From contig CAVSCK010000004.1 in NCBI GenBank assembly GCA_963726455.1, positions 992,001-1,056,000 on the forward strand: a DNA stretch of 64,000 bases, in the 5' to 3' direction. The position numbers and the translations under genes were made by a program. Within the stretch, counting starts at the first letter, position 1. Each line of letters opens with the position of its first letter. The notes under the pieces were generated by a model that worked only from the letters and a program-made list of their open reading frames with translations, searched no databases and was not told the origin of the DNA. Origin of the DNA: an uncultured bacterium. Lineage in GTDB: Bacteria; Zixibacteria; MSB-5A5; CAIYYT01. This document shows positions 18,652-62,372 of this stretch, piece by piece.

Positions 18652-18705
18652 GATGCCCTCCCGAGTTAGTTGGCCCGGTCAAGAGGAGAGATTTAATGTG
18701 TGAGT

Positions 18706-18733: not shown

Positions 18734-18789
18734 GAAGATTTGCGCGCTCACACCCGGTGGCAGTCGCGCGGGGAGACAGCTGAGATGCG

Positions 18790-19070
18790 TCAGGTCACAC
18801 CAATCGCCTCGCGGAGCGAGGCGATTGGCAAGACCTGACGCAACAGAAGAATGAGCCACGCAAATATCTTTCGACTAGTGGCAGGTCACAATTCCGCGCG
18901 ATGAGTAGTCTTGAGTCAAAGGACTTGTCGATCGGCGCGGAATCAGGACCTGCCACAACAAGGAGTGGTTGTTGAAGATTCGCGCGGTCCCTCACCCACG
19001 GCCATGCTAACATCTGAGGACATGCGCGCTCCCTCACCCCCTGCCCCTCTCCCACGGGGAGAGGGGAAAG
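18790..19070. repeat. REP-like palindrome cluster
   Basis: GTCAGGTCACAC...GACCTGAC and CCCTCACCCCCTGCCCCTCTCCCACGGGGAGAGGGG. Confidence 0.8.
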
Positions 19071-19092
19071 AGCAACAAAGCAATTAATTCAT

Positions 19093-47531: not shown

Positions 47532-47929
47532 GTGTGACCTCCGAAAATTAGTTAATACGGTTGTTCGAGATTTCGTTTTCAAGGGATTATGAAAAGCTAA
47601 TTGACCTCGCTTGATGTCTGAGCGGTCCCCAATCATTCTCCGAACATTCGGAGCGTTCCCGTCGTCCCTTACTGAAAGCACATTTCAGTCCGACGTCGAC
47701 GCATTGCTGCCGTTACCGGTCGTCGGGATACGACTACCGGGCAGACCCCTGTGATGCTGTGAAAAGCGAAGTTGTGGTGATCTCAGGTCTGCGACTTCCA
47801 AGAAGCCGGACTCGTAATCAAAATCACCCAAGCTCTGATTTTCTGATTTACGCAATTAACCTAAGTAATGAACGTCTGTTTGTCAACCTATTTTGCCATG
47901 TTCTGGAAGATTATCTGCTAGAATTGAAG

Positions 47930-47947
47930 AAAGCCGGTGAAGGGACT
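47930..47947. repeat. att core (left junction)
   Basis: AAAGCCGGTGAAGGGACT, identical to 62244-62261 (tRNA-Thr 3' end). Confidence 0.92.
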
Positions 47948-48026
47948 GCACACATTAATGCACTTTCAATTCCCCTGTCGATCAAAATAGTTTCGAAAAG
48001 GCGAATAGCGTAGTATCGTCGCGCTG

Positions 48027-48572
48027 ATGATAGTGCGAACACGACAGCGACCGCAAAATGAGCCTGAGCGGCCGTGGATACTGGCTACTCACAAAGGCGA
48101 TTACGGAAAGTTGCTTCTCGCAGCGCGGCCATTCCAGAAGTCACTTTGTATAGTCCGGCCCGCCATCAAGAGGACGTCACCAAGAATTTCCTATGAGCCG
48201 CTCTATTTCGATTATGTCTTCCTGAGAGCATTGTCGGGCAGCCTGTTTGTCACGATCAAACACCTTCCGGTAAAGGTAGTCTGCTTGGGCGACAAGACTC
48301 TGTCGATCACACAGGCGGAAATGGATAAGATCACTGAGATTACTCGGACTCTCGCCTATCAAGCCGCTCACCCACCGGGGGCGCAAGAATTTGTACAGGA
48401 ACACAAGGGCAAGCAGGTCACCATCACCGGCGGCTCGGCGTGCGGAATGTCCGGTATCGTCGATTCTGAGGCCAGCACGCGGGACGTGTTTGTCAGGATC
48501 GCGGGCCTGCGAATACGGGTGCCGATGGACAGGTTGGATGTTGAGACTGTTGGCGTAACGTCTTCCCCTTGA
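48027..48572 (+). CDS. NusG paralogue (NGN plus KOW) antitermination factor
   Basis: EPLYFDYVFLR (cf. PLFPGYVFV) and KOW GKQVTITGGSACGMSGIV. Confidence 0.7.
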   Translation: MIVRTRQRPQNEPERPWILATHKGDYGKLLLAARPFQKSLCIVRPAIKRTSPRISYEPLYFDYVFLRALSGSLFVTIKHLPVKVVCLGDKTLSITQAEMDKITEITRTLAYQAAHPPGAQEFVQEHKGKQVTITGGSACGMSGIVDSEASTRDVFVRIAGLRIRVPMDRLDVETVGVTSSP

Positions 48573-49016
48573 GCCTTCTGCCGCTTCTCTACGATTATGC
48601 CCTTATTGATGTACCCGTTGTTTCTGAACGATTCTTCGCCTTTTTAGGTGTCAACTTTGTCAAATTTGCGATACGCTTGTCTCTGTTACTTCTCTGCTTA
48701 TCAGTGCTCATGTCGAATTATCCGGGGCGTCCGGCAGTTGTCCGATGGAATCGGACGACTTACACAAATTCCCCGCGAATCATTGTTAATTCGTTGTTCT
48801 CAATGCCTTCCTGAAGGCGGCATTTTCCCCACCAAAACAACAGCATAGCATTGACATTTATCTCTCCTAGCCTGATATTGAGGTCACGTTCACGAAGTAG
48901 AGCACAAATCTAATTGCAGTCTGGAAGCTGATCACGTCCAGGCGCAACTCCTCTGAGTGCGCAGAGTGTCCTGCTGGAACCTCAGCCGCAAAGACCGAAG
49001 GGAGACAATAAAAATC

Positions 49017-49562
49017 ATGTTGGGAAAGATACTGATTGCGGCGGTATTGACGTTTTGGCTGCCAGCCGTCGGCGGGAATCTCACAGTCACGGTGGATACT
49101 GGCATGGCCTTGAACGGCGGCTTATCCAGCCTAAACTTTCATAGCCGACTCAGCGTGTTGAAGATCGTAATTAATGATGATGCTTGCCCTGCCCAATTGA
49201 CAGAAGCGGGCCTGTGGCCGAACAACAATAAGGTTGACTTTCTGTTCTCGACCACCGGCAAACTAACTTCACTGGATAGCATCGATGCTGTTGACATCAC
49301 ATTCCTCGCCTATGATTATTTTGACCGTGCTATACTGAGATTCGCGACGCCAGAAGCATTCTCCCTGTCGCCCGGTAAGGAGATGGATATTGGCAAGCTA
49401 ATGGGGCAAGTCGTCAACGAACGTCAAAGAAGACTATTATTCAAGTCTGTCACCTTTGTTTCTGCAATCAGAAGAAAGGACGGAAGCCTTTGGTTCGCAG
49501 ACGAATCAGCAATCATTGCGCTCGTCAAATCGCTGAATCTCGAATTTCCAACGCAAAACTAA
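49017..49562 (+). CDS. Secreted hypothetical protein
   Basis: Signal peptide MLGKILIAAVLTFWLPAVG; upstream TTGACA promoter at 48851. Confidence 0.65.
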   Translation: MLGKILIAAVLTFWLPAVGGNLTVTVDTGMALNGGLSSLNFHSRLSVLKIVINDDACPAQLTEAGLWPNNNKVDFLFSTTGKLTSLDSIDAVDITFLAYDYFDRAILRFATPEAFSLSPGKEMDIGKLMGQVVNERQRRLLFKSVTFVSAIRRKDGSLWFADESAIIALVKSLNLEFPTQN

Positions 49563-49578
49563 AATTGGAGAATCAATC

Positions 49579-49959
49579 ATGTTCAAGAGATTTTCGCTGA
49601 TCAGTCTTGTCGCAATTCTGTCATTGTTGTTCGCCTGCACCGGCAAACAAGGGCCGACGGGGCCGCAAGGTGATAAGGGCGATCCGGGCGATCCGGGGAC
49701 GGGAACTCGAATTGTCTATCAAAGTACCGCACCCGCAAACAGCCAGCAGTTTGTCGTGATGATCCCAGAGATTGACACCCACGATATGCCGTCAGTCACC
49801 GCGTATACCGCCACGACAACTTATCCGAACTCTTGGTTTCCAATTCCGTTGTATGTTTCTGGCGGGCCGGACTTGGGCGCATGTTTCATCGTTGAAACCG
49901 GAAAGGTTACGCTCGTGAATTGCAGCGGCCTTCTCTACAAGATTGTCATTGTGATCTGA
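49579..49959 (+). CDS. Lipoprotein with short collagen-like repeat
   Basis: Lipobox LLFAC, then GKQGPTGPQGDKGDPGDPG. Confidence 0.8.
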   Translation: MFKRFSLISLVAILSLLFACTGKQGPTGPQGDKGDPGDPGTGTRIVYQSTAPANSQQFVVMIPEIDTHDMPSVTAYTATTTYPNSWFPIPLYVSGGPDLGACFIVETGKVTLVNCSGLLYKIVIVI

Positions 49960-50108
49960 TGCGCGTTTGCCGGTGATCCTGGAGGTCAATACTGACTTGA
50001 CGATGGAAATGAGTTGCCCCTTGCCCGGCGGAAGACTCTGAAAATAAATAAAGAAAACTAAAGGTTTTTAGTTGCGTCGCCGATGACATTTGCGTATATT
50101 GGGTGAGA

Positions 50109-50291
50109 ATGAAAACAGGCACAACCGCGAAATCAGATCGGCAGCTTATCAACTTCGAGATTGAACCAGAGCTGAAGGCACGTCTTGAAACTCAGGCCAA
50201 GAGGGAGCATCGCACTCTCAGCGGTCTAGTAAAGCATATCATTCTGTCGTACTTGGAGTCTCGGGAAAGCGAGAAGAAACGTAGCAGATAA
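50109..50291 (+). CDS. Ribbon-helix-helix (Arc/CopG-like) DNA-binding protein
   Basis: LINFEIEPELKARLETQAKREHRTLSGLVKHII. Confidence 0.75.
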   Translation: MKTGTTAKSDRQLINFEIEPELKARLETQAKREHRTLSGLVKHIILSYLESRESEKKRSR

Positions 50292-50379
50292 GTAAACGGC
50301 GATGCAGACCAGGCACGGTCTACACCGCCTTTGAGAGGCTCAAATGAGCCAGTACACAGTATAACTTGAGAGGTATCAA

Positions 50380-50757
50380 ATGACAACCCGCAAATCTACA
50401 ATCCCCGCCAACGGTCACAAAGACTCGAACCCGTTCCTTACCGATGAAGAGCAGAGACAAGCTATCAGTGGCCTCCAACTCGCTTCATTTGGTCTCGAAG
50501 AGGCAGCGAAATTTGAGAAGCTGGTGGAAGACAGGAGGCGCAATCCCAACTGGCAAAAGGAATTCAAACCCGCTCCCACCCAGCCGTCAAATAGAGAGCT
50601 CCGCAAGTTTCTCAGAGGGAATGAGAGACGTCGTTTCGACGGGGCTATCTCGAAGATGGATTCAGCGATAAGACTGATGAGGGGCAGCAGCGGTCTCCTG
50701 TCGCAATACAGGGAACTCGCCACTAAGAGAATGAATCAGGCCGGAGGCGCGCTGTGA
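50380..50757 (+). CDS. Hypothetical protein
   Basis: 125 aa, RBS GAGG, overlaps the next start (GTGA). Confidence 0.6.
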   Translation: MTTRKSTIPANGHKDSNPFLTDEEQRQAISGLQLASFGLEEAAKFEKLVEDRRRNPNWQKEFKPAPTQPSNRELRKFLRGNERRRFDGAISKMDSAIRLMRGSSGLLSQYRELATKRMNQAGGAL

Positions 50758-51695
50758 ATTCAAGTATTACTCAGACCACTCTGCCGAGCACTAACAGTGT
50801 CGGCTTTCAGCAGCTTATCGATGCTTTTCTGTCCCGCCGAAGTCGAGAGACTCGGCGGGCTTACTCAAAGGACTTGGCCGACTTCGCGACGTATCTTGAA
50901 GTCGCTGACAATGAAACTGCCCTACTGCGGCTCGTGTCCAGTGGCCAAGGACAAGCGAATTCGATGGTCATGGGTTACAAGACGGCGCTGATCGAAGGCG
51001 GCAAATCGCCGAACACGGTCAACCGCCGACTGGCAACCTTGCGCTCGGCCGTCAAGTTAGCAATCACGCTCGGACTTGTGAACTGGACAATAAGCATCGA
51101 AAACGAGCGAGTCGAAGCCTATCGGGACACGACCGGGCCAGGCATTGAGGGATTCAGGAAACTACTCAGGTATTCGGCTCTTTCGGCACCGCCCTTTATG
51201 GGATCTCGGAATACCGCAATTCTGCGGTTATTGTTCGACCTGGCGCTTCGGCGCGGAGAAGTTGCCCAACTCGACTTGGCCGACTTGGACATCGACAACG
51301 GCACTATTCAGGTCATTGGCAAAGGTCGGAGCCAGAAAGCCACTCTGACACTGCCAGCGGCAACATGCGGGGCTTTGAGAGCTTGGCTCATGGTCAGAGG
51401 CGCCCAACCGGGGCCGCTGTTTAGGAACTTTGACCGGGCGCGCAAAGGCAACCGGCTGACCGACGGTGGAATTTACCGGATGGTGCGAAACCTGGGGCGC
51501 AAGATCGGTTTGGTAGTCCGACCTCACGGCTTGCGCCATGCCGCGATCACAAAGGCGCTTGACCTCACCGGCGGCAACGTCCGTAGCGTGCAAAAGTTCT
51601 CCCGACACCGGAACATGCAGACCTTAATGGTCTATGACGACAACAGACAGAATCTCGCCGGTACAGTCTCAAATCTGATTGCCGAGGCGGTTTAA
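50754..51695 (+). CDS. Tyrosine recombinase (XerC/D-like resolvase)
   Basis: LRRGE, GKGR, RPHGLRH, SRHRN...VYD catalytic motifs. Confidence 0.9.
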   Translation: MNSSITQTTLPSTNSVGFQQLIDAFLSRRSRETRRAYSKDLADFATYLEVADNETALLRLVSSGQGQANSMVMGYKTALIEGGKSPNTVNRRLATLRSAVKLAITLGLVNWTISIENERVEAYRDTTGPGIEGFRKLLRYSALSAPPFMGSRNTAILRLLFDLALRRGEVAQLDLADLDIDNGTIQVIGKGRSQKATLTLPAATCGALRAWLMVRGAQPGPLFRNFDRARKGNRLTDGGIYRMVRNLGRKIGLVVRPHGLRHAAITKALDLTGGNVRSVQKFSRHRNMQTLMVYDDNRQNLAGTVSNLIAEAV

Positions 51696-51760
51696 ATTCG
51701 GTAGAATATGAGCACGGAAACCATCATTATCAGGCTCATATTCAGCCGGGGAAGTGAACT

Positions 51761-51994
51761 ATGAGTAGCGTTTACATGACCACAGCACAAGCCGCCGAGC
51801 GCCTGCAATACAGTTATAGCCACTTCGTGAGGGTCTTATTGCCAAAGTTGCCGGGCGTCATCAGAAATGGCAAGAATGGCGCTTATCGAATTCCCGTCGC
51901 GTCGTTGGTCGAATTTGAACGAAAGCATTTGGTCACTCACAACCCGGATTCGAAACCAGCAGCCTTTCGAGGGGGCACTGAGCAGAAGGAATAA
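51761..51994 (+). CDS. Excisionase-like HTH protein (possible recombination directionality factor)
   Basis: YMTTAQAAERL...GAYRIP. Confidence 0.7.
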   Translation: MSSVYMTTAQAAERLQYSYSHFVRVLLPKLPGVIRNGKNGAYRIPVASLVEFERKHLVTHNPDSKPAAFRGGTEQKE

Positions 51995-52020
51995 TCAAGA
52001 GACATTCAAGTGGCTCAATA

Positions 52021-53400
52021 TTAGCTCCCAGCATTGGGTGACCTGAGAATTCTCTCCAGCTTCCGCCTGCTGATCCCCAACGCCCTCATAGTCGCACTCT
52101 TGTTGCCGTTATTCTTTTCCATGACAGCCGTCACAAAACGCTGTTCGAGCGTCACGATCGGCCAATTAGTATCAGCAACAAAACGGTGTGTGGGAGCGAT
52201 CTTATTGGGCTCGGCGATGGTTTGAGTCCCTTCAAAATTCATTGCCCACTTGGAACCGTATCTTCGAAAGAAATCGAGGGGACTTTCATCCGGGATATAA
52301 GTATCGAGCGGATTCTCGTGAATCTTTCGTTTGGCCGCTTTGATGAGGAACTTCTCTGCGAGCAGACGATAATCCTTCTCGCCAAAAGCGAGTATTGTTT
52401 CTCTACTCCACGCCCACTTCTTGAGTGTGCTCCGGTCAATGAACGAAAGTTGCCATCGGAAGGGATTCAGTCCAGCGAAACTTATGTCGGCCGCAAGCCA
52501 TCTTTCGGAGAAATACTCCCCCCCGAAGTAAGTGTCGGCATCGAGAAACCAACTGTAATTTCCTCGCCAGTGCTTCCACATAGGATGAGACCAGCGATGC
52601 CTATCGATACAGATATATCTCAGTACTTCATTCTTCAACTGCCGCACGTTGCCCTCCCATTCGTTCATCAGAAGTATGTGGACCAGAGCAGCCGGAAATA
52701 GGTCTATTCTTGCGATCTTCTCGTCGGCGCAAAATTCGTCGCAGAAATGCAGGAATAACTCTACCGCGTCAAGTCTTCTGTTTCTAAGGGGTTCCACTTC
52801 TATCTTCAATGGAAATCGCCAATACAGATCAGGACGGATTCCATATCTCCAGTCGTCTTCATTATTTCCTGTGGTGACACCACCACCGGCGTTCTTGACC
52901 GGCCGATTTGTTGCCGCAATGATTCGGCAATCAGACTTCTTGATTTCTGGAGACCCGAGTTTGTGGTATTCGCCCGACTCTATGAAACGGAGGATTTCTC
53001 CCTGAACCGACGAATCCAATCCGCCTATTTCATCGATAAAAAGAGTGCCTCCATTCGCCTCGAATACGAGGCCTTCCCTGTTCTCGGCACCAGTGTAAGC
53101 CCCTTTCTTGCATCCGAAAATCTGGCCGTGCGCCAACTGAGGATTTCCCTGAAAGTCGTACGAATTTACCGGCAGAATTCTTCCGCCTCGATTTCGGTCA
53201 CTCTTCTCATGCAAAAGATGCGCGACAACTTCTTTGCCAACACCCGACTCCCCCACGATCAGCACCGGCTCCCGCCGCGGAGCGTAAAGCTCGACATCGC
53301 CGCGCACTTGAGTCGTCGGTCCACTGCTACCGATCATCTTCTGTCTGGATACTTGGGTTTTCTCGGGTTGAACCGTCACTTCATTATGTGCGTTTTGCAT
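52021..53400 (-). CDS. sigma54 enhancer-binding protein lacking an N-terminal sensor domain
   Basis: MIGSS at residue ~22, GESGVGKE, GAYTGA, LFIDEIG, WEGNVRQL, long aromatic insert, Fis-type HTH GNKSATMRALGISRRKL. Confidence 0.85.
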   Translation of the reverse strand: MQNAHNEVTVQPEKTQVSRQKMIGSSGPTTQVRGDVELYAPRREPVLIVGESGVGKEVVAHLLHEKSDRNRGGRILPVNSYDFQGNPQLAHGQIFGCKKGAYTGAENREGLVFEANGGTLFIDEIGGLDSSVQGEILRFIESGEYHKLGSPEIKKSDCRIIAATNRPVKNAGGGVTTGNNEDDWRYGIRPDLYWRFPLKIEVEPLRNRRLDAVELFLHFCDEFCADEKIARIDLFPAALVHILLMNEWEGNVRQLKNEVLRYICIDRHRWSHPMWKHWRGNYSWFLDADTYFGGEYFSERWLAADISFAGLNPFRWQLSFIDRSTLKKWAWSRETILAFGEKDYRLLAEKFLIKAAKRKIHENPLDTYIPDESPLDFFRRYGSKWAMNFEGTQTIAEPNKIAPTHRFVADTNWPIVTLEQRFVTAVMEKNNGNKSATMRALGISRRKLERILRSPNAGS

Positions 53401-53500
53401 AATATGGTTCCTTTAGCTTAAGCATTTCGCTAAGGCCAAGCTAACACAAGTTAATAATAACGCAATCACTTTCTTCCAGACATCAGCATAATCCTTTGCA

Positions 53501-53547
53501 CATCAAGCAGTTATTTACGCGCCTTCCGGTTTGGCTCGGCTCTTGCT
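53501..53547 (+). promoter_or_regulatory. IHF-like site plus sigma54 -24/-12 promoter of the rightward satellite operon
   Basis: CATCAAGCAGTTA (53501-53513) and TGGCTCG-GCTC-TTGCT (53532-53547). Confidence 0.7.
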
Positions 53548-53583
53548 ATACATACGGGAATGAAGCGATCCAAAGGAGATAAG

Positions 53584-53796
53584 ATGAATCAGTTTCGCTT
53601 GAAAAGAGTGCGGCTGGGGTTGACCCAGTACGACCTGTGGAGGGAGACCGGCATACCGCAATCTCGGATTTCGCTACTCGAACGCGGCTTCTACGAATTG
53701 AAGCCAGACGAAGACGAGAGGCTGAGATCGGTGTTGAAGATGCGCCCTCGGACTCCCAAAAATGACAAAACATCACTTGGCGCAACGGCTGCGTGA
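53584..53796 (+). CDS. XRE-family HTH protein
   Basis: RVRLGLTQYDLWRETGIPQSRISLLERG; RBS AAGGAG. Confidence 0.85.
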   Translation: MNQFRLKRVRLGLTQYDLWRETGIPQSRISLLERGFYELKPDEDERLRSVLKMRPRTPKNDKTSLGATAA

Positions 53797-54002
53797 ACTT
53801 GAGGAACCCAGTGCCGCGACAAAGGCCACAGACGAAAGTGAATGTCAACCTCGGGACACCTAACCCAGACGGCCTTGCTCTGCTTGTCAACTTCGTTTCG
53901 ACCCGACTCGTGGTATCGATTCTCCAAAGTAACCAAGAACACAACCAAGAGGGCGACACCGTTGGGAGCCCTTCACCGGAAAGGAGTTCACAACGTGTGT
54001 AG
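53793..54002 (+). CDS. Hypothetical protein
   Basis: 69 aa, GTGA overlap with the XRE gene. Confidence 0.45.
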   Translation: MNLRNPVPRQRPQTKVNVNLGTPNPDGLALLVNFVSTRLVVSILQSNQEHNQEGDTVGSPSPERSSQRV

Positions 54003-54213
54003 CAAACTCGATTCGTTCAAAGAGTTTGTCCTCCGAGGTCACAAGTTAATCAGCGAGGGACAGGCCGACAAAGCTTTGTCTCTTGCATTCTGTCTACTCG
54101 ACAGCTTGGGCAATGTGGCGTTTCGCGAACAGGAACCTAAGAGAGCGTGCGTTTCCAAAAGCGTGCAGCCTTCGAATTCGAAACGAATTAACCAAATACA
54201 AAGGAAGAGGTAA
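53995..54213 (+). CDS. Hypothetical protein
   Basis: GTG after AAGGAG; 72 aa. Confidence 0.5.
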   Translation: MCSKLDSFKEFVLRGHKLISEGQADKALSLAFCLLDSLGNVAFREQEPKRACVSKSVQPSNSKRINQIQRKR

Positions 54214-54217
54214 AACG

Positions 54218-54667
54218 ATGACAGGCGAGATCAAGGTACTCGGACAAAAGCCAGTTCAAGTCAGCTTGGCAGGACAGGAATTCACCATCTATCCGGCGAC
54301 ACACTATCGGATGAATCAGATCCTTGAGTGCGCCGCAACGGCGAGAGCAAATTCGGAAGCCATGCGCAAAGCAGAGGAGACCGAAGATGCGGCAATCAAA
54401 GCGCGGGGCGAAGAAATCCCCATCAGACCACTCAAGTCGACGCCGGTCGATTACGGAATTCTCCGGCTTATCTGCAAGGCTCCAGACACTTTCGAGAACA
54501 GCAAATTGGTTGAAGGCAAGGTTCCCGCTGTACTGACCAACGAATTCTGGAGCCAGCAAGTCCAGACGGCGGAAATAGCGGGCTTATTCGAGGTCTTTGT
54601 GTCCCTGCTTGACATCGACAAGCTCATTAAGAACGCTCTCTCACTCGTGGGACAGACCCGTGTGTAG
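54218..54667 (+). CDS. Tail assembly chaperone-like protein
   Basis: ATG after GAGG; VQVSLAGQEFTIYP N-terminus; immediately upstream of the tape measure gene. Confidence 0.55.
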   Translation: MTGEIKVLGQKPVQVSLAGQEFTIYPATHYRMNQILECAATARANSEAMRKAEETEDAAIKARGEEIPIRPLKSTPVDYGILRLICKAPDTFENSKLVEGKVPAVLTNEFWSQQVQTAEIAGLFEVFVSLLDIDKLIKNALSLVGQTRV

Positions 54668-54715
54668 CCCCATGACAGAAGATGACTCGGATTTTCCAAA
54701 AAACTTGGAGCGTAA

Positions 54716-57504
54716 ATGCCCGGTGTAGTTGACATCCTGAAATATGTGTTGGAGCTGGACTCCGGCCAACTCAAAGCCGAAGCGAAACAATCCGACACAA
54801 TAATCAACCAGTTGTCAGGCACAATCAAGGGCGCGCTTGTTGGCGCATTGGGTGCCGCCGCTGTTGGTTTCGCTACGGTCAAGATCGGCGAATTTCTGAA
54901 AGATGCCACCCTGACGGCGGCACGTACCGAAGTGTTGGGAACTGTCTTGCATCAGGTCGGCAAGGTGGCGGGTGAATCAAGCGGATATCTTGACGGCTTA
55001 GCCGACAAGGTTGAGGCGCTAGGGGTCACTACCCAAGCAAGTCGCACTCTGCTTATTCGACTGATGCAGTCTCATCTTGACCTTGCCTATGCCGTGAAGA
55101 TTGCGACAGTTGCGCAAGACTTAGCCGTAGTCGCTGATCAGAATTCCTCTGAGGCCGCCGAAGGAATTACGATAGCAATTGCCAAAACCGATGTTGAGCT
55201 GTTGCGGCAATATGGTATCGTCATTAACGCAGAGCGACTATTCAAACAGTACGCCCAGACAATCAATAAATCAGCGTCCGAACTTTCCGATCTCGACCGT
55301 CGCACGGCGATTGCTAACGAGGTATTTCGCCAAGGGGCTGCCTCCGCTGGTACTTACGAAGCGGCAATGGCTGATGTCGGCAAGCAGATAACATCAATGC
55401 CTCGATACGTCGAGGAGATGAAGAACGCTCTCGGAAAGGGGTTTCTCCCCCTGCTCGCTGACATTGTGCATTTACTTCGCGACGCCACAGTCGGCCTTAC
55501 CGATTTTCTGACACCGGCGACAGAACTAAAAACAGCCGAACTAAACAAACTACAGTCAGAATTTAGCAAGATCACTGGAATCTTACCTGACTTGGTAAAG
55601 GAATTTGTAAATCTATCCACCAAGACAAGACTCACCAACACCGAACAAGATCGGCTCCTTACCATTCAGCAACAGATCGCCGCGCTCGCTCCCGGCTATA
55701 TCACAGCACTCAACGATGAGGGTATGGCGCTCGACCTTAACGCCAAATCCTTAGCCAACTACACCGGATTGCGCAAGGAACAGATTGAAACTATTAAGAA
55801 TGATCTGATTTCAGCACTGTTAGCGGAGGAGGAGGCACAAGATCGCGCCAACAAGAAGAACCTTGCTGCGATTGAGAATTTCAAGAAGATAGCCGCTTCG
55901 AACAAAGCTGCTGGTGTTAAGGTTGGCTATGGCATCCCAGGCCAAATCAATGAGATAGTGATCGAATTGTCGAAGGGCATCCAGCGCTCACTTGAATTAC
56001 AACAGCGCATCGCGGCACTTGGAAGCGAGGGGAGGATGCTGCCAAGAAAATTGAGAAGATACCAGAAGACCTGAAAATCGAGATCAAATTCGGCAGCGAG
56101 AACTTGTCCTCCGCCGAGGAGCAGATAAAGCGCATTCAGTCATTAGTCGAGGCGGTTCAATCCCAATTCGGCGACCAAGGGATTACGCCCGATAGCGACA
56201 AGTTGATTGCGGCATTGCGGTCACTTATCAATTCGGAAGCGGCGATGCTTTCGACCGATGCCCAGAGGATTATCATTGACGCACTCAACAAGGCGCGGGA
56301 CAACCAACGCAGTGATGCTAAGTCGAAATCCGATCAGGAGCGATATTACAAGGACATACAGGAGAGCGAAGCCAATGCAGCGAAAGATCGCCTCAATGAC
56401 ATAGAAAAGGAAAAGCGGGCGCGTGTAAATGCAGCCGTCGATGTCGCTGACGCCCTTGGTTATGCCGCTACCAATTTCTTTGGTCTCTTCGATGAAGGTA
56501 TTGCCCGAATCGCCTCGAATCTCAGTAACGCGATCAGTGGCGCAATTTCTGGATTCTCACAAGGCGGAGTTGCCGGGATTGCCGGAGCTATCGGCTCGAT
56601 TCTTTCAGGATTCGCTTCCCTTTTCAGCGGTGGAGCGGACAAGATTGTCGTGTCGCAATACGAATTGATCGAAGCCATCGAAAATTGGGAGTCTACCATT
56701 GAGACATTGACGCCAAAAGAAAAAACCGCGCAACAAGAGATGGCCGAACTCGGTATTGAGGCGGCCAGCAGATTAATGGGCAACGGTTGGGACTGGAATC
56801 AGATTGTGGCACTGCTCAGACCCCTATTTGAATCTGTCGGGTTATCCATTCCACAAGGCATTACATATGAGCAATTTCTTGGTTGGGGAAATGACATCAT
56901 CGCGGACATTGGCGCATCAAATGCACAAACGACCGCTGAATTGAAAGCGGATAATGCCGCGTCGCGCAGGGAACTTGTTCTGAGTCAAAAGACGGGAACT
57001 GACGCGCTTGAGACCATCGCCGATCTTGATAAACTCTATGCCTTGAGCCCCGAGGAATTGCATGCTCTCTATGAAGAAACGATGGCGAAGTTTGGTGACA
57101 AAATGTCAGATAGCGACAGAATCAACACACAGGCATTGATTAACGATTACCACAGAGGAGAGGCTGAGCGAGCGCAGAGCGGGGCCGGAGCCGAGCAGAC
57201 TCAGGCGTCCCGCTCGATTCAGAAAATAACCGAACGCCAGGTCGACTCGCTCATTTCCGCGTTGTCCACCATCGACCTGCACATAACCGAGGGCATACAG
57301 AAATTGCTCGATGGCATCCGCAACACGACTAACAGGACAACCATGAATGCGGCGGCGACTATCGAAGTGGCGGTAATCAACGCGGGTGTAATCAACACGG
57401 GGTCGATCAGAGTAGCGGGATCGATGAGTGGCAATAATGGCGCATCGGCGAATACGAAGCAATTACTTACTGTCGAATCACGCAGCCTAGGTAGGAGGGT
57501 GTAA
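54716..57504 (+). CDS. Tape measure protein (~930 aa), split by a 1-bp indel at ~56030
   Basis: TMP domain AARTEVLG...AQDLAVVADQNSSEA...GTYEAAM...GKQITSMPRY; one extra G in GAGGGGAGG gives GSEGEDAAKKIEKIPEDL, in frame with 56104-57504. Confidence 0.85.
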
Positions 57505-57556
57505 GGCATGTCATCGGAAGCAAACACAGCGTGTGCGAGAATCACCGGAGTTGACT

Positions 57557-57985
57557 GTGTCTAACCGCGCAAAAATGACACCTGAAAAAAGAGAGACGTT
57601 CCTCGCTACGCTTGAGACTACGGGAGGGCAGATAACAAAGGCATGTAAGGCCTGTGCTGTTTCGCGCGACGTAATCTATCGACTTCGCAAAAGTGATGAA
57701 CAATTCGGGAAAGACTTCGAAGCCGCACTCGACAAAGGCATTGACCTGCTCGAAGCGGAATGCAAGCGGCGCGCATTTGAAGGCGTTCCCAAACCCGTGT
57801 TCTATAAAGGCAAAGAGTGCGGGATCATTCAGGAATACTCCGATACACTTGCGATCTTCCTGATGAAGGCTCACCGGTCGAAGTACAAAGAGAAATTCCT
57901 ACTGACTGGTGAAGGCGGCGGCGCAGTCAAAGTCCTCGTTGAATATGTGAACAAACCCAATGGAGTGTATCGTGAAGTGTGTTGA
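57557..57985 (+). CDS. terS: Terminase small subunit
   Basis: HTH FLATLETTGGQITKACKACAVSRDVIYRLRK plus RRAFEGVPKPVFYKG...YSDTLAIFLMKAH. Confidence 0.75.
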   Translation: MSNRAKMTPEKRETFLATLETTGGQITKACKACAVSRDVIYRLRKSDEQFGKDFEAALDKGIDLLEAECKRRAFEGVPKPVFYKGKECGIIQEYSDTLAIFLMKAHRSKYKEKFLLTGEGGGAVKVLVEYVNKPNGVYREVC

Positions 57986-58397
57986 CCTCAAGACAGTTTT
58001 CGGACGGAGATACAAGATTGCTGCTGATCCCTCGGCCGGGGCCCGCAACGTCGATCCGTGGTACTGGACTATCCCCTGCCGGCGCGGCGAAATCTATCCC
58101 TATGGCGGCGACTTCCTTTGTGCCTCGGTACGAAATGGGGCGGTTTCCAAGTCGATGCGCTCCTGGCCCGAGCTGACGGTTTTGCAGGACGCCGACGACG
58201 AGACAGTCTTCAAGTTTCACGTCAACAACTTCGAAAAGGTAGCTCAGGCCGTGGGTGCCAAGAAACGGCGGCGAATGTCAGTCGAGACCATGAAGAAAAT
58301 TGGTGCAGACACGGCGTACGTGACGCCAAACGGGGGTGAATTTCAACGATCTCCCCAAGGGGCGAGTGATTTGACACGGGGGGCAGTTCGTGTATGA
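57960..58397 (+). CDS. Hypothetical protein
   Basis: 145 aa, overlaps both neighbours; DPWYWTIPCRRGEIYPYGG. Confidence 0.65.
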   Translation: MECIVKCVDLKTVFGRRYKIAADPSAGARNVDPWYWTIPCRRGEIYPYGGDFLCASVRNGAVSKSMRSWPELTVLQDADDETVFKFHVNNFEKVAQAVGAKKRRRMSVETMKKIGADTAYVTPNGGEFQRSPQGASDLTRGAVRV

Positions 58398-59022
58398 TTT
58401 AGACACCCTAAAGGCCGGCGTCACCATCGAGAACATCCTTGACGATTTCGGGATTGCCCACCGCCATCACAGGGCAGCCTGTCCCGTTCACCGTGGCGAC
58501 AATAGGTCTGCTTTCAGCTTCAACGATGAGGCTTTCTACTGCCACACCCAAGGATGCAAGGGCGGCGTTATCGACCTGGTCATGGCTCTGGCCGGGACTG
58601 ATTTCAGGGGCGCGCTGGACTATCTGGCTCGCAAGAAGGGAATCGCGAATGATTTCGGAATCACCGGGACGACTCAGTTTACAAGGAGTCTGCCTGACAA
58701 TTCTGATCCATTCAGGGAAGAAAGGAAACGGCTCTCACCAAAAGACTATGTGGAGTTGCTTTGTATGGCCGACGATCTTAACCGCGCTGAATCCGACCTC
58801 GCCGAATGCAGGAGTAACATTGGCACACTGACCGCCCAATTATCCCAACTTATCCACCTCAAGAGGCGGAAACAGATTGCCAAATCGCTGTACTACTTGA
58901 ACACACAGAAGATCGACGACAACCGGCTCGCACTGTTCGACGAGCAGGAAGCACAACTCAACTACAAGGTCAAAGAGATAAAGCGGCAAATCAGCGAGTT
59001 CAGGAAGAAGGTAAGGCAATGA
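58390..59022 (+). CDS. CHC2 zinc-finger (DnaG-type zinc-binding domain) protein without TOPRIM
   Basis: ACPVHRGDN...FYCHTQGCKGGVIDLV, then coiled coil. Confidence 0.8.
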   Translation: MYDLDTLKAGVTIENILDDFGIAHRHHRAACPVHRGDNRSAFSFNDEAFYCHTQGCKGGVIDLVMALAGTDFRGALDYLARKKGIANDFGITGTTQFTRSLPDNSDPFREERKRLSPKDYVELLCMADDLNRAESDLAECRSNIGTLTAQLSQLIHLKRRKQIAKSLYYLNTQKIDDNRLALFDEQEAQLNYKVKEIKRQISEFRKKVRQ

Positions 59023-60263
59023 TTAGCGACTGCGAAATTGACGCCGAGTTTTGCCAAGAGACCGACGCTGACATCGACCTGACGATACCCGAATCCGGCT
59101 TTCTCCTGAAATATTACAACCTAATCTGCCCTATCACAGAGGCGCCTGAAGTCTACCATCTGTTTATGGGAATGTCTTTGATCGCCGGTGTCCTCGGGCG
59201 CAAAGTGTTTCTCGACTGGACGGCTTACAAGATTTACCCGAACCTGTATATCATCCTGGTCGGCGCGTCTTCAGCAATCAAGAAATCGACGTCAATCAAC
59301 CAAGCCCGACCGTTTCTTAACGCCGTCGATCCCAACCTGATCTTTCCAAATGAATTCTCGAATGAAGCTTTCTTGGAGCTCCTTGTCACTCAGCCGCAAG
59401 GTTCGCTGTTCTGGGATGAATTCGGCGGCGTGCTCGCGACATTCGAGCGTTCGTACATGTCCGGTACCAAAGAAATGCTGACCTCGATGTTTGACTGTCC
59501 GAGTGACTATCGACGGTTGCTCAAAGGCAACGCCAAGAGCAAAGAGTCGGGCAAGGTCGTTATCATCCGGGAACCGTACATCAATATCGCCACTACTTCA
59601 ACCCTTGAGTGGCTCGTCAATCGGATCAAGGAACAGGATATCAAGTCGGGTTTCCTGGCTCGATTTGTCTACGTGCCCGGTAAAGAGCCGAGCAAACGAC
59701 TTTCGCGCCCGCCCAAATTAGATCAGAAGTTGAGGTCCGAAATCATCATGGAGTTGAAGGCTATTCGAGAGATTTCGGGCGAAGCGGAACTCACTGACGA
59801 CGCGTTTCTGTACTATGACACCTGGTACAACGGTGTCTTTGATCAGATACAGAAGGGCGACAATCGCGACAAGCTCTCCCCTTTCTTTAGCCGGCTACTG
59901 GTCTACGCTCTCAAATTCGCCCTGATCTACCAAGTGTCCGAAGATCACTCGCTGACAATTCAGGAACACAACATGATCAGGGCGTGTCAGTTGGTCGACT
60001 TCCTCAAGCGCAACATCAAAGACATGGTCGAAAATGAACTGGTTTTTGGTGTGGACGCCATTCAGTTGAAGAGAGTGTTGGAAGTCATCAAGTCAGAGGG
60101 TGCGATTGAACGGAGCAAACTTTTCACGCGAGTGAACTATCGAAAAGACATTCTCAACCGACTCATCGATACCCTTCTTGAGCAGGAACAGATTTCGGTT
60201 TCTCGGGAACAGTGGCACAAGGGGAAGAAGCCGAGAACGATTTACACCTATAACGGTAAGTGA
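59019..60263 (+). CDS. DUF3987 (YfjI-like) P-loop helicase-like protein
   Basis: NLYIILVGASSAIKKST, WDEFG, SGFLARF; C-terminal winged helix. Confidence 0.8.
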   Translation: MISDCEIDAEFCQETDADIDLTIPESGFLLKYYNLICPITEAPEVYHLFMGMSLIAGVLGRKVFLDWTAYKIYPNLYIILVGASSAIKKSTSINQARPFLNAVDPNLIFPNEFSNEAFLELLVTQPQGSLFWDEFGGVLATFERSYMSGTKEMLTSMFDCPSDYRRLLKGNAKSKESGKVVIIREPYINIATTSTLEWLVNRIKEQDIKSGFLARFVYVPGKEPSKRLSRPPKLDQKLRSEIIMELKAIREISGEAELTDDAFLYYDTWYNGVFDQIQKGDNRDKLSPFFSRLLVYALKFALIYQVSEDHSLTIQEHNMIRACQLVDFLKRNIKDMVENELVFGVDAIQLKRVLEVIKSEGAIERSKLFTRVNYRKDILNRLIDTLLEQEQISVSREQWHKGKKPRTIYTYNGK

Positions 60264-60293
60264 CAACCACTTAGGGCGCTTGAAAGGAAATCA

Positions 60294-60528
60294 AAACTTT
60301 GGTAAATTTAGATAAACTTCGCGAAATGGTATGTTATGCGCAGACAATGAGTTACCATATAACTTCTAAACTACTAACTACTACTACTACTACTACAGGG
60401 GGCGCTGACTCACCTGAAATCAAAGGGAAAAAGAGGGAGAGATGCAAGAAGTTGTCGAAGTTTAGAAGTTTACACCTAAACCCTTTTATCTAATTACGAT
60501 ACCTATTCGCGAACATTTGCGAAGTTTA
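60294..60528. other. Putative replication origin: convergent AAACTTC/GAAGTTT iterons around a (CTA)n tract
   Basis: Heptamers at 60294, 60314, 60360 and inverted at 60448, 60457, 60465, 60521. Confidence 0.55.
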
Positions 60529-60626
60529 CGACTGCTTCTGTTGCCCACTTGGACTCGGGGAAACAAGTTGCCAAAGACCTTTAGGGCGCATACTGTGACA
60601 CCGACTACCGAAAGGAATAACAGACG

Positions 60627-62372
60627 ATGAAGTGCGCCGTCTATGCCCGGTACAGCTCCGACATGCAGAAACAGACCAGCATCGAAGATCAGGTGCGGGA
60701 GTGTCGGCAGTTCATCGAGCACAGACAGTGGGAAGTTGCCGACGGCCGGGTGTACTCTGACTACGCCATCAGTGGAGCTGATATCAACCGCACGGGTTAC
60801 CAGGCACTCAAGGCAGACGCATACAAGAAACTGTTTGCCTGCATCGTAGTTGACGACTTATCGCGACTCGGAAGGGACGCCGGAGAAGCAATCCAAATCT
60901 ACGGGGAATTGACTGCCTATGGAGTTAACATCGTCTCTGTGTCGGATGGAATCGAAACGGCTTCATCTTCTTCGAAGATTCCCTACTACTTCAAGAGCAT
61001 TGCCAACGAACTCTTTCTGGATGAACTGAAGGCCAAGATCGTTCGCGGTCTCAAAGGTCAAGTCTCTCGCGGTTACTCTGCCGGCGGCCGGACCTACGGC
61101 TACTACTCCGAGCCGGAACTTGTTCCGGGTGGCGGCGCTGACAAATTCGGCAGACCTCGGCGGCACGGGGTTAAGATCAAAATCAATGAGAAAGAAGCGG
61201 AAGTCGTGCGAATGATCTTCCGACTCCGCGCCGATGGTCTTGGACAACGTGCGATTGCCACTCGCCTGAATGAACTGAAAATCCCTTCCCCATTTGCACA
61301 CGTCGACCACTTTAGCGGAACTTGGTCGCCCGACACGGTACGCCACATGTTGCAACAGCGGAGATATATCGGCGACTGGACTTGGAACAAGAGCCGGTCT
61401 CTCAAGAAGAATCCTCTCGGTAAGCGAATTGTCAGAGAGAAGACAGTCGACCAATGGATTGAACACGTCGACGAATCATTGCGGATCATTCATCAAGATT
61501 TGTGGGACGCTGTACTGGCGACATTTGCAGACAAAGAAACACGATTGCGGTTCACGCCGGGGCCGAAAGGTGTCTATCTCTTGGGTGGGCTGCTTAAGTG
61601 TTCTCGCTGCGGATCGTCACTTGTCGGAATGAAATCGAAAGGATGGACTGCCTATGTGTGCAGCGGCAACAGAAGTAAAGGCAAGGTGTACTGTCCAGCC
61701 TCACACCGACTACCGCTCATCGAGGCTGACTCCGGAGTTCTGCAAGGCTGCAAAGAAATTCTGTTTTCTGATGAAACACTCGCATTGATTTCACGCCAAG
61801 TCAACGAAGCGTTGGCGACTATCGAGAAGCAGACTCCCAAGCGGCGAGATCGCTTAGCGAGAAGACTCAACACTCTTGACACGTCCATTGAGCGCCTACT
61901 TGATTTTGCGGAGACTGAACCGAGTAGTCCTGCTCTTGGTGAACGCCTACGGACTCTGGAAGCGGAAAAGCGCACTGTCCAGGCCGAACTTGATGCACTC
62001 AAAACCGAAACCCGTAGGACTAACCGACTGTCCGAAGAGTTCATCAAGGCCAGTCTGCAAGGGCTCCTACCTGCCGTGAGCGCTGACGAAAGCAGCCGCC
62101 AGGAGCTGAAATTCATCCTCAGCAAGATGTTTCCGGAAAAATTGTCTGTCACGATTCGCGAAAAAAATGGCTATGTTGAGTTTGGCGTGCTTGGTAACCT
62201 AATGCCCCTCAATATCCTTCCGAAGGCTTCTGCGTTAATGTATAAAGCCGGTGAAGGGACTCGAACCCCCGACCAGCTGATTACAAATCAGCTACTCTAC
62301 CAACTGAGTTACACCGGCTTAAGAAATCTGCCTGCCCGTTTCAAGTACCGTCACTCCGACGCGCAGGATTAG
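60627..62372 (+). CDS. Large serine recombinase (integrase); C-terminus reads through att and antisense to tRNA-Thr
   Basis: YARYSS, DDLSRLGRD, recombinase domain, zinc ribbon CSRCGS...YVC. Confidence 0.95.
   Translation: MKCAVYARYSSDMQKQTSIEDQVRECRQFIEHRQWEVADGRVYSDYAISGADINRTGYQALKADAYKKLFACIVVDDLSRLGRDAGEAIQIYGELTAYGVNIVSVSDGIETASSSSKIPYYFKSIANELFLDELKAKIVRGLKGQVSRGYSAGGRTYGYYSEPELVPGGGADKFGRPRRHGVKIKINEKEAEVVRMIFRLRADGLGQRAIATRLNELKIPSPFAHVDHFSGTWSPDTVRHMLQQRRYIGDWTWNKSRSLKKNPLGKRIVREKTVDQWIEHVDESLRIIHQDLWDAVLATFADKETRLRFTPGPKGVYLLGGLLKCSRCGSSLVGMKSKGWTAYVCSGNRSKGKVYCPASHRLPLIEADSGVLQGCKEILFSDETLALISRQVNEALATIEKQTPKRRDRLARRLNTLDTSIERLLDFAETEPSSPALGERLRTLEAEKRTVQAELDALKTETRRTNRLSEEFIKASLQGLLPAVSADESSRQELKFILSKMFPEKLSVTIREKNGYVEFGVLGNLMPLNILPKASALMYKAGEGTRTPDQLITNQLLYQLSYTGLRNLPARFKYRHSDAQD
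62244..62261. repeat. att core (right junction)
   Basis: AAAGCCGGTGAAGGGACT, identical to 47930-47947. Confidence 0.92.
62246..62318 (-). tRNA. tRNA-Thr(TGT)
   Basis: GCCGGTGTAACTCAGTTGGTAGAGTAGCTGATTTGTAATCAGCTGGTCGGGGGTTCGAGTCCCTTCACCGGCT; cloverleaf, anticodon TGT, CCA not encoded. Confidence 0.97.

What the first reader, a model, noticed from the sequence alone, without database searches (positions are those of the whole stretch)
54218..57504. Stand-alone tail chaperone and tape measure without tube or tip genes
Seen: only these two tail genes, with no evident frameshifted gpGT-like extension after the chaperone. Known: TMP sets tail length and helps form the DNA-entry channel. Inference: either a replacement TMP giving satellite particles distinct tails or entry properties, or a dominant-negative decoy that poisons helper tail assembly.
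Basis: partly seen in the sequence, partly recalled or inferred. Interest (0 to 1): 0.7.

Follow-up and report, generated by a model that had tools for sequence, protein, structure and literature searches.

The report
Orphan tail-ruler genes on a satellite-like island
A small mobile island inserted at a tRNA gene carries just three phage virion genes (a tail chaperone, a tail-length ruler and a DNA-packaging specificity subunit), which fits a phage parasite that borrows the rest of a virus, a strategy first shown experimentally only in 2026.

Summary
54218-54667 encodes a tail assembly chaperone (TAC) and 54716-57504 a ~929-aa tape measure protein (TMP). No tube, tip, capsid, portal or large-terminase gene lies beside them. 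There are two qualifications. The TMP is split by a one-base frame change between 55996 and 56074. The assembly is frame-split in 10 of 90 tested genes, so this proves no decay. The TAC lacks the slippery site and -1 extension that its closest phage homologue keeps.

The pair sits in a 14.3-kb island (47930-62261) bounded by an 18-nt repeat of the tRNA-Thr 3' end. The island also holds two recombinases, regulators, an orphan small terminase directly after the TMP, and CHC2/DUF3987 replication genes. Related islands in three other genomes share the backbone but not TAC, TMP or TerS. In 15 of 16 annotated long phage contigs the TMP homologues sit in ordinary tail operons.

Best reading (0.4): a satellite-like element that redirects packaging and puts its own TMP into helper tails, as shown for Vibrio PLEs (Nature 2026). 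Main rival (0.33): inert captured phage fragment. It is a single instance, with no helper and no expression data.

Noticed in passing: a portal-TerL-capsid cluster at 1.7-15.3 kb is conserved in 256 of 285 genomes of the phylum.

The parts
47926..47947 (.). attL: partial copy of the 3' end of tRNA-Thr (18-nt exact repeat at 47930-47947)
   Evidence: Direct repeat D9. The same 18-22 nt match the tRNA 3' end in six loci of five related genomes.
50754..51695 (+). Tyrosine recombinase
   Evidence: PF00589 2.6e-20, phrog_1 3e-29. 56-61% identical copies lie in related islands L047 and L048.
51761..51994 (+). HTH_17 (excisionase/AlpA-like) DNA-binding protein
   Evidence: PF12728 E 2.6e-4, below Pfam's cut-off.
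52021..53400 (-). Sigma-54 activator-type AAA+ protein with C-terminal HTH_8 and no N-terminal sensor domain
   Evidence: PF00158 3e-38, PF02954 5e-5. NCBIfam and PADLOC match only the AAA+ core.
53532..53546 (+). Sigma-54 -24/-12-like site TGGCTCGGCTCTTGC (1 mismatch) in the divergent intergenic region before the rightward gene array
   Evidence: Consensus matches are common in the window (87 found against 68 expected at up to 2 mismatches), so this is only a lead.
53560..53796 (+). XRE-type HTH regulator, first gene of the rightward array
   Evidence: PF01381 3.5e-5.
54218..54667 (+). Tail assembly chaperone, G-type only (149 aa)
54716..56074 (+). Tape measure protein, N-terminal reading frame (452 codons; the last ~15 are out of frame)
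55996..56074 (+). Zone where both TMP frames are open. It contains the frame change, with a G4 run at 56026-56029 as candidate, and no CCGG.
55996..57504 (+). Tape measure protein, C-terminal reading frame (-1 relative to the first)
   Evidence: 39% identity to residues 490-876 of the single-ORF homologue P0004. 27-30% identity to L002 and L029.
57533..57985 (+). Orphan terminase small subunit, 28 nt after the TMP stop
   Evidence: phrog_4044 2.4e-35. 87 phage records match and many are annotated terS. Relatives L022 and L023 carry an ORF of TerL length (about 497 aa) directly downstream; in L023, the one annotated, it is TerL followed by portal.
57960..58397 (+). 145-aa protein of unknown function
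   Evidence: No family hit. Atlas neighbours are unnamed clusters that are half viral.
58390..59022 (+). CHC2 zinc-finger (primase-type) protein
   Evidence: PF01807 3.9e-7.
59019..60263 (+). DUF3987 protein (primase/helicase-associated)
   Evidence: PF13148 5e-13, phrog_14296 5e-30. Homologues occur in 4 of 284 other genomes of the phylum.
60627..62372 (+). Large serine recombinase. The ORF runs on through the antisense tRNA gene.
   Evidence: PF00239, PF07508 and PF13408.
62245..62319 (-). tRNA-Thr(TGT). attR is 62244-62261.

Best explanation
The two genes are a real siphovirus-type tail assembly chaperone and tape measure protein. Together with an orphan small terminase, they sit in the variable slot of a 14.3-kb integrative island at tRNA-Thr. 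That island replicates through a CHC2/DUF3987 module and has no capsid, portal, large terminase, tube, tip or lysis genes, so it is a phage-satellite-like element.

Inferred mechanism:
1. An L002-like siphovirus infects the cell and the island excises and replicates.
2. The island's TerS directs the helper's large terminase to island DNA.
3. The chaperone keeps the island TMP soluble.
4. The island TMP enters the helper's tip/initiator complex in place of the helper TMP.
5. The resulting particles carry a satellite-encoded tail core and DNA-entry device, as shown for PLE satellites of Vibrio.

The chaperone has no T extension. Tube recruitment would therefore have to come from the helper's own G-T protein.

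Shown here: gene identities, island borders, gene content, and the absence of the module from relatives. Inferred: every step of the mechanism, the existence of a helper, and the intactness of the TMP.
For: - Island borders: an 18-nt repeat of the tRNA-Thr 3' end. No island DNA is found in 5 related genomes.
- Gene content: two recombinases, HTH regulators, TerS, CHC2 and DUF3987, and no other virion gene.
- Operon-like packing from XRE to DUF3987, all on one strand. TMP to TerS is 28 nt. The next three junctions overlap by 26 nt (TerS to the 145-aa ORF), 8 nt and 4 nt, as the ORFs are listed.
- The backbone is shared with islands in G193, G201 and G011 at 36-61% identity, and these carry other cargo at the same place. 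TAC-TMP-TerS is therefore an acquired module and not the rump of a decayed prophage.
- The TMP is full length. Both termini are conserved against 922-933-aa homologues, and each half is free of internal stops.
- An orphan TerS is a known satellite packaging strategy (PMC11417361, Introduction read).
- TAC + TMP on satellites, used to build chimeric tails, has been shown for PLEs. Putative tmp genes are reported in PLE-like elements and cf-PICIs (PMC12987554). EPIPs combine TerS, serine integrase, HTH and TMP (PMC12822802).
Against: - The TMP is frame-shifted. The junction zone has no CCGG, which is the context of 10 of the 12 other frame-splits in this assembly, so it may be a real lesion.
- It is a single instance. 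The TMP C-half and the TerS are each found in 0 of 284 other genomes of the phylum. None of the 3 related islands has the module.
- In 15 of 16 annotated long contigs the homologues lie in ordinary phage operons.
- No candidate helper was found. Of 472 ORFs from the homologue loci, only TAC and TMP match this locus. Three other ORFs gave unrelated hits elsewhere.
- The TAC lacks the T extension. Work on lambda and TP901-1 finds this essential for tube recruitment (PMC4493119, passages).
- No expression or virion data exist. No sequencing run could be listed.
Confidence: 0.4

Rival explanations
1. Inert passenger. A fragment of a phage structural operon (TAC-TMP) and a TerS were captured by illegitimate recombination into the cargo slot of an integrative element. 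They have no function, and the TMP is already broken.
For: - A frame change lies in mid-gene, outside the CCGG context typical of this assembly's errors.
- The chaperone has lost the slippery site and T extension that the L002 homologue keeps.
- The module is unique to this genome.
- The backbone family exists without any phage virion gene.
- The GC3 of TMP and TerS (0.52-0.57) is slightly below that of the backbone genes (0.58-0.65).
Against: - Both genes are full length with conserved termini and clean gene boundaries. Neither half has an internal stop.
- The spacing to the neighbouring genes is tight and operon-like.
- The three captured genes are exactly the kinds that known satellites carry.
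- The assembly has frame-splits in 10 of 90 genes, so the one lesion may be an artefact.
Confidence: 0.33
2. Tail-assembly interference. The island TMP, kept soluble by a G-only chaperone that cannot recruit tube protein, occupies the tip/initiator complexes of an infecting siphovirus and blocks its tail formation. This would be a defence or competition device and not a structural replacement.
For: - The TAC has no T extension, and the T domain is what recruits the major tail protein (PMC4493119 passages).
- Both TMP termini are conserved with phage homologues, so the protein could dock to phage partners.
- Tail assembly is a known target of satellite- or PICI-borne defences (PMC12987554; PMC11364771, abstract seen in the listing).
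Against: - No known case uses a TMP as a decoy.
- No PADLOC defence model matches the module.
- The adjacent TerS points to packaging and transfer rather than pure defence.
- A satellite that needs tails would harm itself.
Confidence: 0.12
3. The module serves the resident, phylum-conserved portal-TerL-capsid cluster at 1666-15302. That cluster has no recognised TerS or TMP, so the island would supply the missing parts or parasitise a domesticated particle.
For: - The gene content is complementary within 35 kb.
- The cluster is present in 256 of 285 genomes, so it would always be available.
Against: - The module is absent from 284 other genomes that keep the cluster.
- The cluster's TerL shows no specific similarity to the TerL of the TerS relative L023 or to the TerL beside the TMP homologue in L025.
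- No tube protein is recognised in the cluster.
Confidence: 0.04

Closest known systems
PLE satellites of Vibrio cholerae (PLE11, PLE1, PLE4): partial tail pathway TAC + TMP + BhuB giving chimeric tails (PMC12987554)
   Same: A small integrated element without capsid or most tail genes carries its own TAC and TMP next to each other. The proposed use is replacement of the helper TMP in helper-built tails.
   Different: - No sequence relation was tested or seen.
- The helper type would be a siphovirus, not the contractile ICP1.
- No hub (BhuB) gene and no Rta.
- PLEs use Gpi/GpsA/GpsB and pac mimicry (PMC11417361), whereas this island has a classical TerS.
- The backbone differs (two recombinases, CHC2/DUF3987).
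- Function is unproven here.
EPIP satellites of Mycolicibacterium (PMC12822802, preprint)
   Same: An element of about 11-14 kb with TerS, serine integrase, HTH regulator and a TMP.
   Different: EPIPs also list adaptor, stopper, scaffold and major capsid protein, and the island has none of these. EPIP tails are longer than the helper's, whereas this TMP has the same length as its phage homologues.
SaPI-type packaging redirection by a satellite TerS (as summarised in PMC11417361, Introduction)
   Same: A TerS without a TerL on a small island.
   Different: No inhibitor of helper TerS was identified. SaPIs are not reported to carry a TMP; this is recalled, not checked here.
Lambda gpG/gpGT + gpH and the TP901-1 TAC/TMP system (PMC4493119)
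   Same: The gene order chaperone then TMP. The TMP has hydrophobic glycine-rich segments and long helical regions. The phage homologue L002 has the canonical A_AAA_AAC slippery site and a 78-codon -1 extension.
   Different: The island chaperone has no slippery heptamer and no T extension. The TMP is followed by TerS, not by Dit/Tal.

Membership tests
Tape measure protein | Sequence homology to proteins annotated or profiled as TMP | tested here: met
   PHROG TMP families match at E 6e-4 to 1.5e-3. tblastn hits lie under annotated TMPs in 11 phage records, covering at most 29% of the query. The N-terminal ~250 aa are 35-51% identical to proteins that carry strong TMP profiles.
Tape measure protein | Gene lies between the chaperone and the distal tail (Dit) genes of a tail operon | tested here: not met
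   A chaperone lies upstream, but TerS follows downstream. The feature is met for homologues in 15 of 16 annotated long loci.
Tape measure protein | One uninterrupted long ORF | tested here: inconclusive
   There is a frame change between 55996 and 56074. The assembly shows 12 frame-splits in 10 of 90 genes. No reads were available.
Tail assembly chaperone (gpG/gpGT type) | Small gene directly upstream of the TMP and homologous to the gene in that position in phages | tested here: met
   28% identity, E 1e-15, to L002:9342-9833. The nearest Atlas cluster is named TAC, score 0.92. There is no Pfam, PHROG or NCBIfam hit.
Tail assembly chaperone (gpG/gpGT type) | -1 programmed frameshift (slippery heptamer) giving a T extension | tested here: not met
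   There is no X_XXY_YYZ heptamer in frame, the -1 frame is full of stops, and only 49 nt separate the TAC from the TMP. The L002 homologue has A_AAA_AAC plus a 78-codon extension.
Tail assembly chaperone (gpG/gpGT type) | TAC fold as in HK97 (PDB 2OB9) | tested here: inconclusive
   The model has pLDDT 79. 2OB9_B ranks 4th of 48,161 chains, with Z 4.0, rmsd 4.2 and 88 residues aligned, but is tied with many helical proteins. The top BFVD hits are named TAC but have E 0.23. Foldseek against the PDB found nothing.
Phage satellite (PICI/PLE/EPIP-like) | Small (<20 kb) integrated element with att repeats and an integrase | tested here: met
   14.3 kb, an 18-nt repeat at tRNA-Thr, and two recombinases.
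Phage satellite (PICI/PLE/EPIP-like) | Own replication module but an incomplete virion gene set, with a packaging-hijack gene | tested here: met
   CHC2 + DUF3987 and an orphan TerS. No TerL, portal, capsid, tube, tip or lysis gene.
Phage satellite (PICI/PLE/EPIP-like) | Induced by, and packaged with the help of, a helper phage | not testable with these tools
   No reads or runs were available, and no helper was identified.
Phage satellite (PICI/PLE/EPIP-like) | Recurrent family with the same hijack module | tested here: not met
   The backbone occurs in 4 of 284 other genomes. None of the 3 examined in full has TAC, TMP or TerS.

The most novel reading that the evidence does not exclude
A minimal 'tail-core and packaging' satellite in an uncultured phylum. 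With only TerS, a T-less chaperone and a TMP it would take over both genome packaging and the DNA-entry core of a helper's tail. It might also exploit the phylum-wide conserved portal-TerL-capsid cluster 35 kb away as a permanent source of heads. That would be a satellite of a domesticated particle rather than of an infecting phage.
Probability: 0.05. Interest if true: 0.85.

Novelty: new variant of a known kind. Interest (0 to 1): 0.45.

Why it matters
Satellite-encoded tape measure proteins were first shown to work in March 2026, for Vibrio PLEs. That paper suggested tail manipulation is widespread among satellites. This island would extend the idea to a distant, uncultured lineage. It would also be the barest form so far: TerS + TAC + TMP, with no capsid genes, no hub and a chaperone without its T domain. 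If functional, it would help define the minimal gene set a parasite needs to own the tail core and the packaging choice. It would also give a natural test of whether a G-only chaperone can work with a helper's G-T protein. If it is only a captured fragment, it shows how such modules first land on an island backbone.

Tried and rejected
- Reads to settle the frameshift: the look-up of sequencing runs listed none.
- A first heuristic for frameshifts from ORF geometry alone was uninformative: 504 and then 86 candidate pairs, mostly normal neighbours. It was replaced by comparison with the intact ORFs of a same-genus genome.
- Structure search of the TAC model gave no significant match. BFVD had 0 hits at E <= 0.001, Foldseek against the PDB found none, and the best VIA-align Z was 4.5. 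A profile search of PDB sequences gave nothing relevant.
- Island backbone in viromes: the DUF3987 protein alone matched no pattern. The DUF3987 alignment found one 27.6-kb viral contig with a fused 720-aa form, which is not the island.
- The TAC alignment in viral contigs found only the L002 contig again.
- No TerS homologue was found on the L002 contig, which is about 50% complete.
- The DUF5681 protein that follows the TMP in L029 matched no phage record, and one paper mentions the family. Its role stays open.
- The sigma-70 promoter and terminator scan gave no counts above shuffles.
- PADLOC gave no defence model beyond the generic AAA+ core.
- A link between the island and the conserved head cluster was rejected for lack of any TerL similarity.
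- I had recalled that PLEs encode a TerS. Reading PMC11417361 showed they do not, and the claim was dropped.
- Complex prediction, the search of protein representatives and dN/dS were not run. The nearest TMP homologue is about 40% identical, which is too far for dN/dS.
Full report
**What is at the coordinates**

The stretch 54218-57504 holds three ORFs on the + strand: 54218-54667 (149 aa), 54716-56074 (452 aa) and a frame open from 55996 to 57504. The last two are one gene.
- A search restricted to longer proteins returned 25 homologues. The best are single ORFs of 820-933 aa.
- Those homologues align with both window pieces.
- P0004 (922 aa) matches the first piece over its residues 3-379 (41% identity) and the second over residues 490-876 (39%).
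- The frame change (-1) must lie in the 79 nt where both frames are open. That zone contains a G4 run and falls in the poorly conserved middle of the protein.
- Read through, the gene would give about 929 aa. L002's copy has 932 aa, P0003 has 933 and P0004 has 922.

**Is it a tape measure protein?**

- Direct profile evidence is weak: PHROG TMP families at E 6e-4 to 1.5e-3, and nothing in Pfam or NCBIfam.
- tblastn against 50,697 phage records hit 11 records. All were under 60% identity and covered at most 29% of the query, and where annotated they fell under tape-measure genes.
- The context of homologues is stronger. Scans found 17 viral, 15 metagenome and 2 genome loci.
- I annotated 16 long loci with PHROGs.
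  - In 15 the homologue sits in a head-tail or tail module. These are L002, L006-L010, L012-L017, L024, L025 and L035.
  - Typically a major tail protein (phrog_807, phrog_158, phrog_117 or phrog_290) and a small 'tail protein' or chaperone lie just upstream, with large tail ORFs, Dit or fibres downstream.
  - L025 is the weakest of these, with only TerL and a head-tail adaptor recognised.
  - The exception is L005: TerS, TerL, a 532-aa ORF, two small ORFs and a MuF-like head-morphogenesis protein, then the TMP and Dit. It has no recognisable capsid, tube or chaperone gene between them.
- Among the short contigs, L019, L020 and L030 have a phrog_290 tail protein upstream and L026 has Dit downstream.
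- In L029 the TMP shares both halves with the window. It is overlapped by 8 nt by a DUF5681 protein instead of a tail gene.

**Is the first gene a chaperone?**

- No library names it.
- It is 28% identical (E 1e-15) to the 164-aa gene directly upstream of the TMP in L002. It has three closer relatives of 126-147 aa.
- Its nearest ESM-Atlas cluster is called 'Tail assembly chaperone family' (0.92, 176 shared features). TAC_2 and pre-tape-measure clusters appear further down.
- An AlphaFold model (pLDDT 79, pTM 0.67) gave only weak matches.
  - The BFVD top hits are named TAC or tape-measure chaperone, but at E 0.23.
  - Foldseek against the PDB found nothing.
  - In the exhaustive VIA-align search the HK97 chaperone 2OB9_B ranks 4th of 48,161 chains (Z 4.0, rmsd 4.2 Å, 88 residues). 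It is tied with many helical proteins.
- The L002 gene has the hallmark of G/GT chaperones. An in-frame A_AAA_AAC sits at 9740, and a -1 frame stays open for 78 codons up to the TMP start. That extension matches the C-terminal part of a 208-position PHROG family.
- The window's copy has no X_XXY_YYZ heptamer and no open -1 frame, and only 49 nt separate it from the TMP.
It marks a real difference from the phage homologue.
- According to work on lambda and TP901-1, the G part binds the TMP and the T part recruits the major tail protein, and both forms are needed (PMC4493119, passages read).

**The surroundings**

- tRNA-Thr(TGT) lies at 62245-62319 on the minus strand.
- Its last 18 nt recur at 47930-47947. 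That left copy matches the tRNA 3' end in six loci of five related genomes.
- Nothing between the repeats matches those five genomes at the DNA level.
- GC falls from about 0.55 outside the repeats to 0.50-0.53 inside.

Gene content of the island, in order:
- four unknown ORFs;
- a tyrosine recombinase;
- an HTH_17 protein;
- a divergent sigma-54-activator-type AAA+ protein;
- an XRE regulator;
- a short unknown ORF;
- TAC and TMP;
- a small terminase (phrog_4044, E 2.4e-35; 87 phage records match it);
- a 145-aa unknown;
- a CHC2 zinc-finger protein and a DUF3987 protein;
- a large serine recombinase whose ORF reads into the tRNA.

From XRE to DUF3987 every gene is on one strand, with short gaps or overlaps between neighbours. 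No TerL, portal, capsid, tube, Dit/Tal or lysis gene is present.

The TerS relatives L022 and L023 have an ORF of TerL length directly downstream. In L023, the one I annotated, it is TerL followed by portal, scaffold and capsid, so the window's TerS is orphaned.

**Relatives of the island**

| Query | Genomes with a match (including this one) |
|---|---|
| TMP N-half | 1 of 21 in the family |
| TMP C-half | 1 of 285 in the phylum |
| TerS | 1 of 285 in the phylum |
| DUF3987 protein | 5 of 285 in the phylum |

- G193 has tyrosine recombinase (61%), CHC2, DUF3987 (38%) and serine recombinase (42%) in the same order. One 508-aa unknown sits where the window has its regulators and TAC-TMP-TerS.
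- G201 has CHC2, DUF3987 and the serine recombinase (50%).
- G011 has the tyrosine recombinase (56%), HTH_17, two large unknowns, CHC2 and DUF3987.
- None has a TAC, TMP or TerS, and none has any PHROG virion hit.
- TAC-TMP-TerS is therefore cargo in a variable slot of a recurring integrative backbone. It is not what remains of a prophage after deletions.

**Is the frameshift real?**

No sequencing run could be listed. I compared 118 ORFs of at least 200 aa, taken from 20 stretches of a same-genus genome, with this assembly.
- 90 ORFs had a hit of at least 55% identity.
- 10 of those 90 were split across frames here, in 12 events.
- 10 of the 12 junction windows contain CCGG, against 30% of random windows. 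This looks like a systematic indel error.
- At about one event per 7.5 kb, a 2.8-kb gene has roughly a 30% chance of an artefactual split.
- The TMP junction has no CCGG, and the non-CCGG class is six times rarer.

I therefore leave the question open at about even odds. The frameshift is not good evidence of decay, and intactness is not shown either.

**Helper**

- tblastn of 472 ORFs from the homologue loci against the whole genome hit only the TAC and TMP at this locus. Three other ORFs gave unrelated hits elsewhere.
- The TerL family phrog_2 has one match in the genome. PF05065 and PF04860 have none.
- That single TerL lies in the window at 12173-13504. It belongs to a minus-strand array spanning 1666-15302:
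  - portal, 14022-15302;
  - TerL;
  - a 614-aa protein;
  - a virion protein;
  - a capsid protein, 7321-8520 (phrog_3922, E 1e-63);
  - six more ORFs.
- The array is flanked by host genes.
- The capsid protein is found in 256 of 285 genomes of the phylum, or 189 of 198 good-quality ones, at 57-85% identity.
- The array is syntenic in 8 of 8 sampled relatives, none of which has the island's genes there.
- It is therefore an old, vertically kept phage-like cluster and not a prophage helper.
- Its TerL shows no specific similarity to the TerL beside the TerS relative in L023 or to the TerL of the TMP-homologue locus L025.
- I found no link between this cluster and the island, and I report the cluster as a separate observation.

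**Comparison with what is known**

- A 2026 Nature paper shows that all PLE satellites encode tac and tmp. It shows that PLE11 virions contain the PLE TMP and hub but not ICP1's, and that tmp deletions cut transduction by 96-99%. It also reports putative tmp genes in PLE-like elements and cf-PICIs (PMC12987554; passages read; its supplements and figures were not seen).
- A December 2025 preprint describes 11-kb EPIP satellites with TerS, serine integrase, HTH and TMP, whose tails are longer than the helper's (PMC12822802; text read).
- A satellite TerS that redirects a helper's TerL is an established strategy (PMC11417361; abstract and Introduction read).
- This island differs in five ways: its backbone, a bare module (no hub, no capsid genes), a T-less chaperone, a classical TerS directly behind the TMP, and a TMP no longer or shorter than its phage relatives.
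- Two literature searches for satellites with TMPs found nothing closer.

**Verdict**

The best reading is a satellite-like island with a packaging-plus-tail-core hijack module (0.4). An inert captured fragment is nearly as likely (0.33). A tail-poisoning decoy is possible (0.12). It is a new variant of a recently established kind. It is known from one genome, and there is no functional evidence.

Noticed in passing
window 1666-15302 (minus strand): A phage-like array with portal (14022-15302), large terminase (12173-13504), a 614-aa protein, a virion protein, a capsid protein (7321-8520) and six more ORFs, flanked by host genes. The capsid protein occurs in 256 of 285 genomes of the phylum at 57-85% identity, and the array is syntenic in 8 of 8 sampled relatives. 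This is a vertically inherited, probably domesticated head or packaging cluster (gene-transfer-agent-like?). No TerS, tube or TMP was recognised in it.
   Followed up: partly
whole genome G000, e.g. C4:130118, C4:520480, C3:227862: The assembly carries many frame-splits: 12 events in 10 of 90 genes compared with intact ORFs of a same-genus genome. 10 of 12 junctions lie within 25 nt of CCGG, against 30% for random windows. This suggests systematic indel errors at a (methylated?) motif. Any 'pseudogene' in this genome needs checking.
   Followed up: partly
L002:9342-9980: The phage homologue of the chaperone has a canonical A_AAA_AAC slippery site at 9740 and a 78-codon -1 extension ending at the TMP start. 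The island copy has lost both.
   Followed up: yes
L029:2321-2728: In a 2.8-kb metagenome contig, a TMP sharing both halves with the window's is overlapped by 8 nt by a DUF5681 protein (33.4 bits) instead of a distal tail gene. This is a second non-canonical neighbour for this TMP family.
   Followed up: partly
L005:2577-11210: An 11.4-kb viral contig has TerS, TerL, a 532-aa ORF, two small ORFs and a MuF-like protein, then a TMP homologue and Dit. No capsid, tube or chaperone gene lies between them. It is either an unusually compact element or a rearranged one.
   Followed up: partly
window 53532-53546 with 52021-53400: A sigma-54 -24/-12-like site (1 mismatch) lies between a sensor-less sigma-54-activator-type AAA+ gene and the XRE-TAC-TMP-TerS array. 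The module may be under enhancer-dependent control. Such matches are common by chance.
   Followed up: no
L046, L047, L048 (G201:C64, G193:C82, G011:C16): Related islands share tyrosine and/or serine recombinase, CHC2 and DUF3987. They carry large unknown proteins (472, 508, 696 and 744 aa) in the variable slot, with no Pfam, PHROG or PADLOC hit.
   Followed up: partly
window 60627-62372: The serine recombinase ORF continues through the antisense tRNA-Thr gene. Its last ~40 codons are therefore set by the integration junction.
   Followed up: no
window 16150-21540 and 44987-47146: Several large secreted-type proteins have SBBP beta-propeller repeats, DUF7948 and C-terminal dockerin domains. 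The gene at 44987-47146 has an internal 300-nt direct repeat at 77% identity. The dockerin segment is the only part of 44-48 kb that matches relatives at the DNA level, and it does so many times.
   Followed up: no
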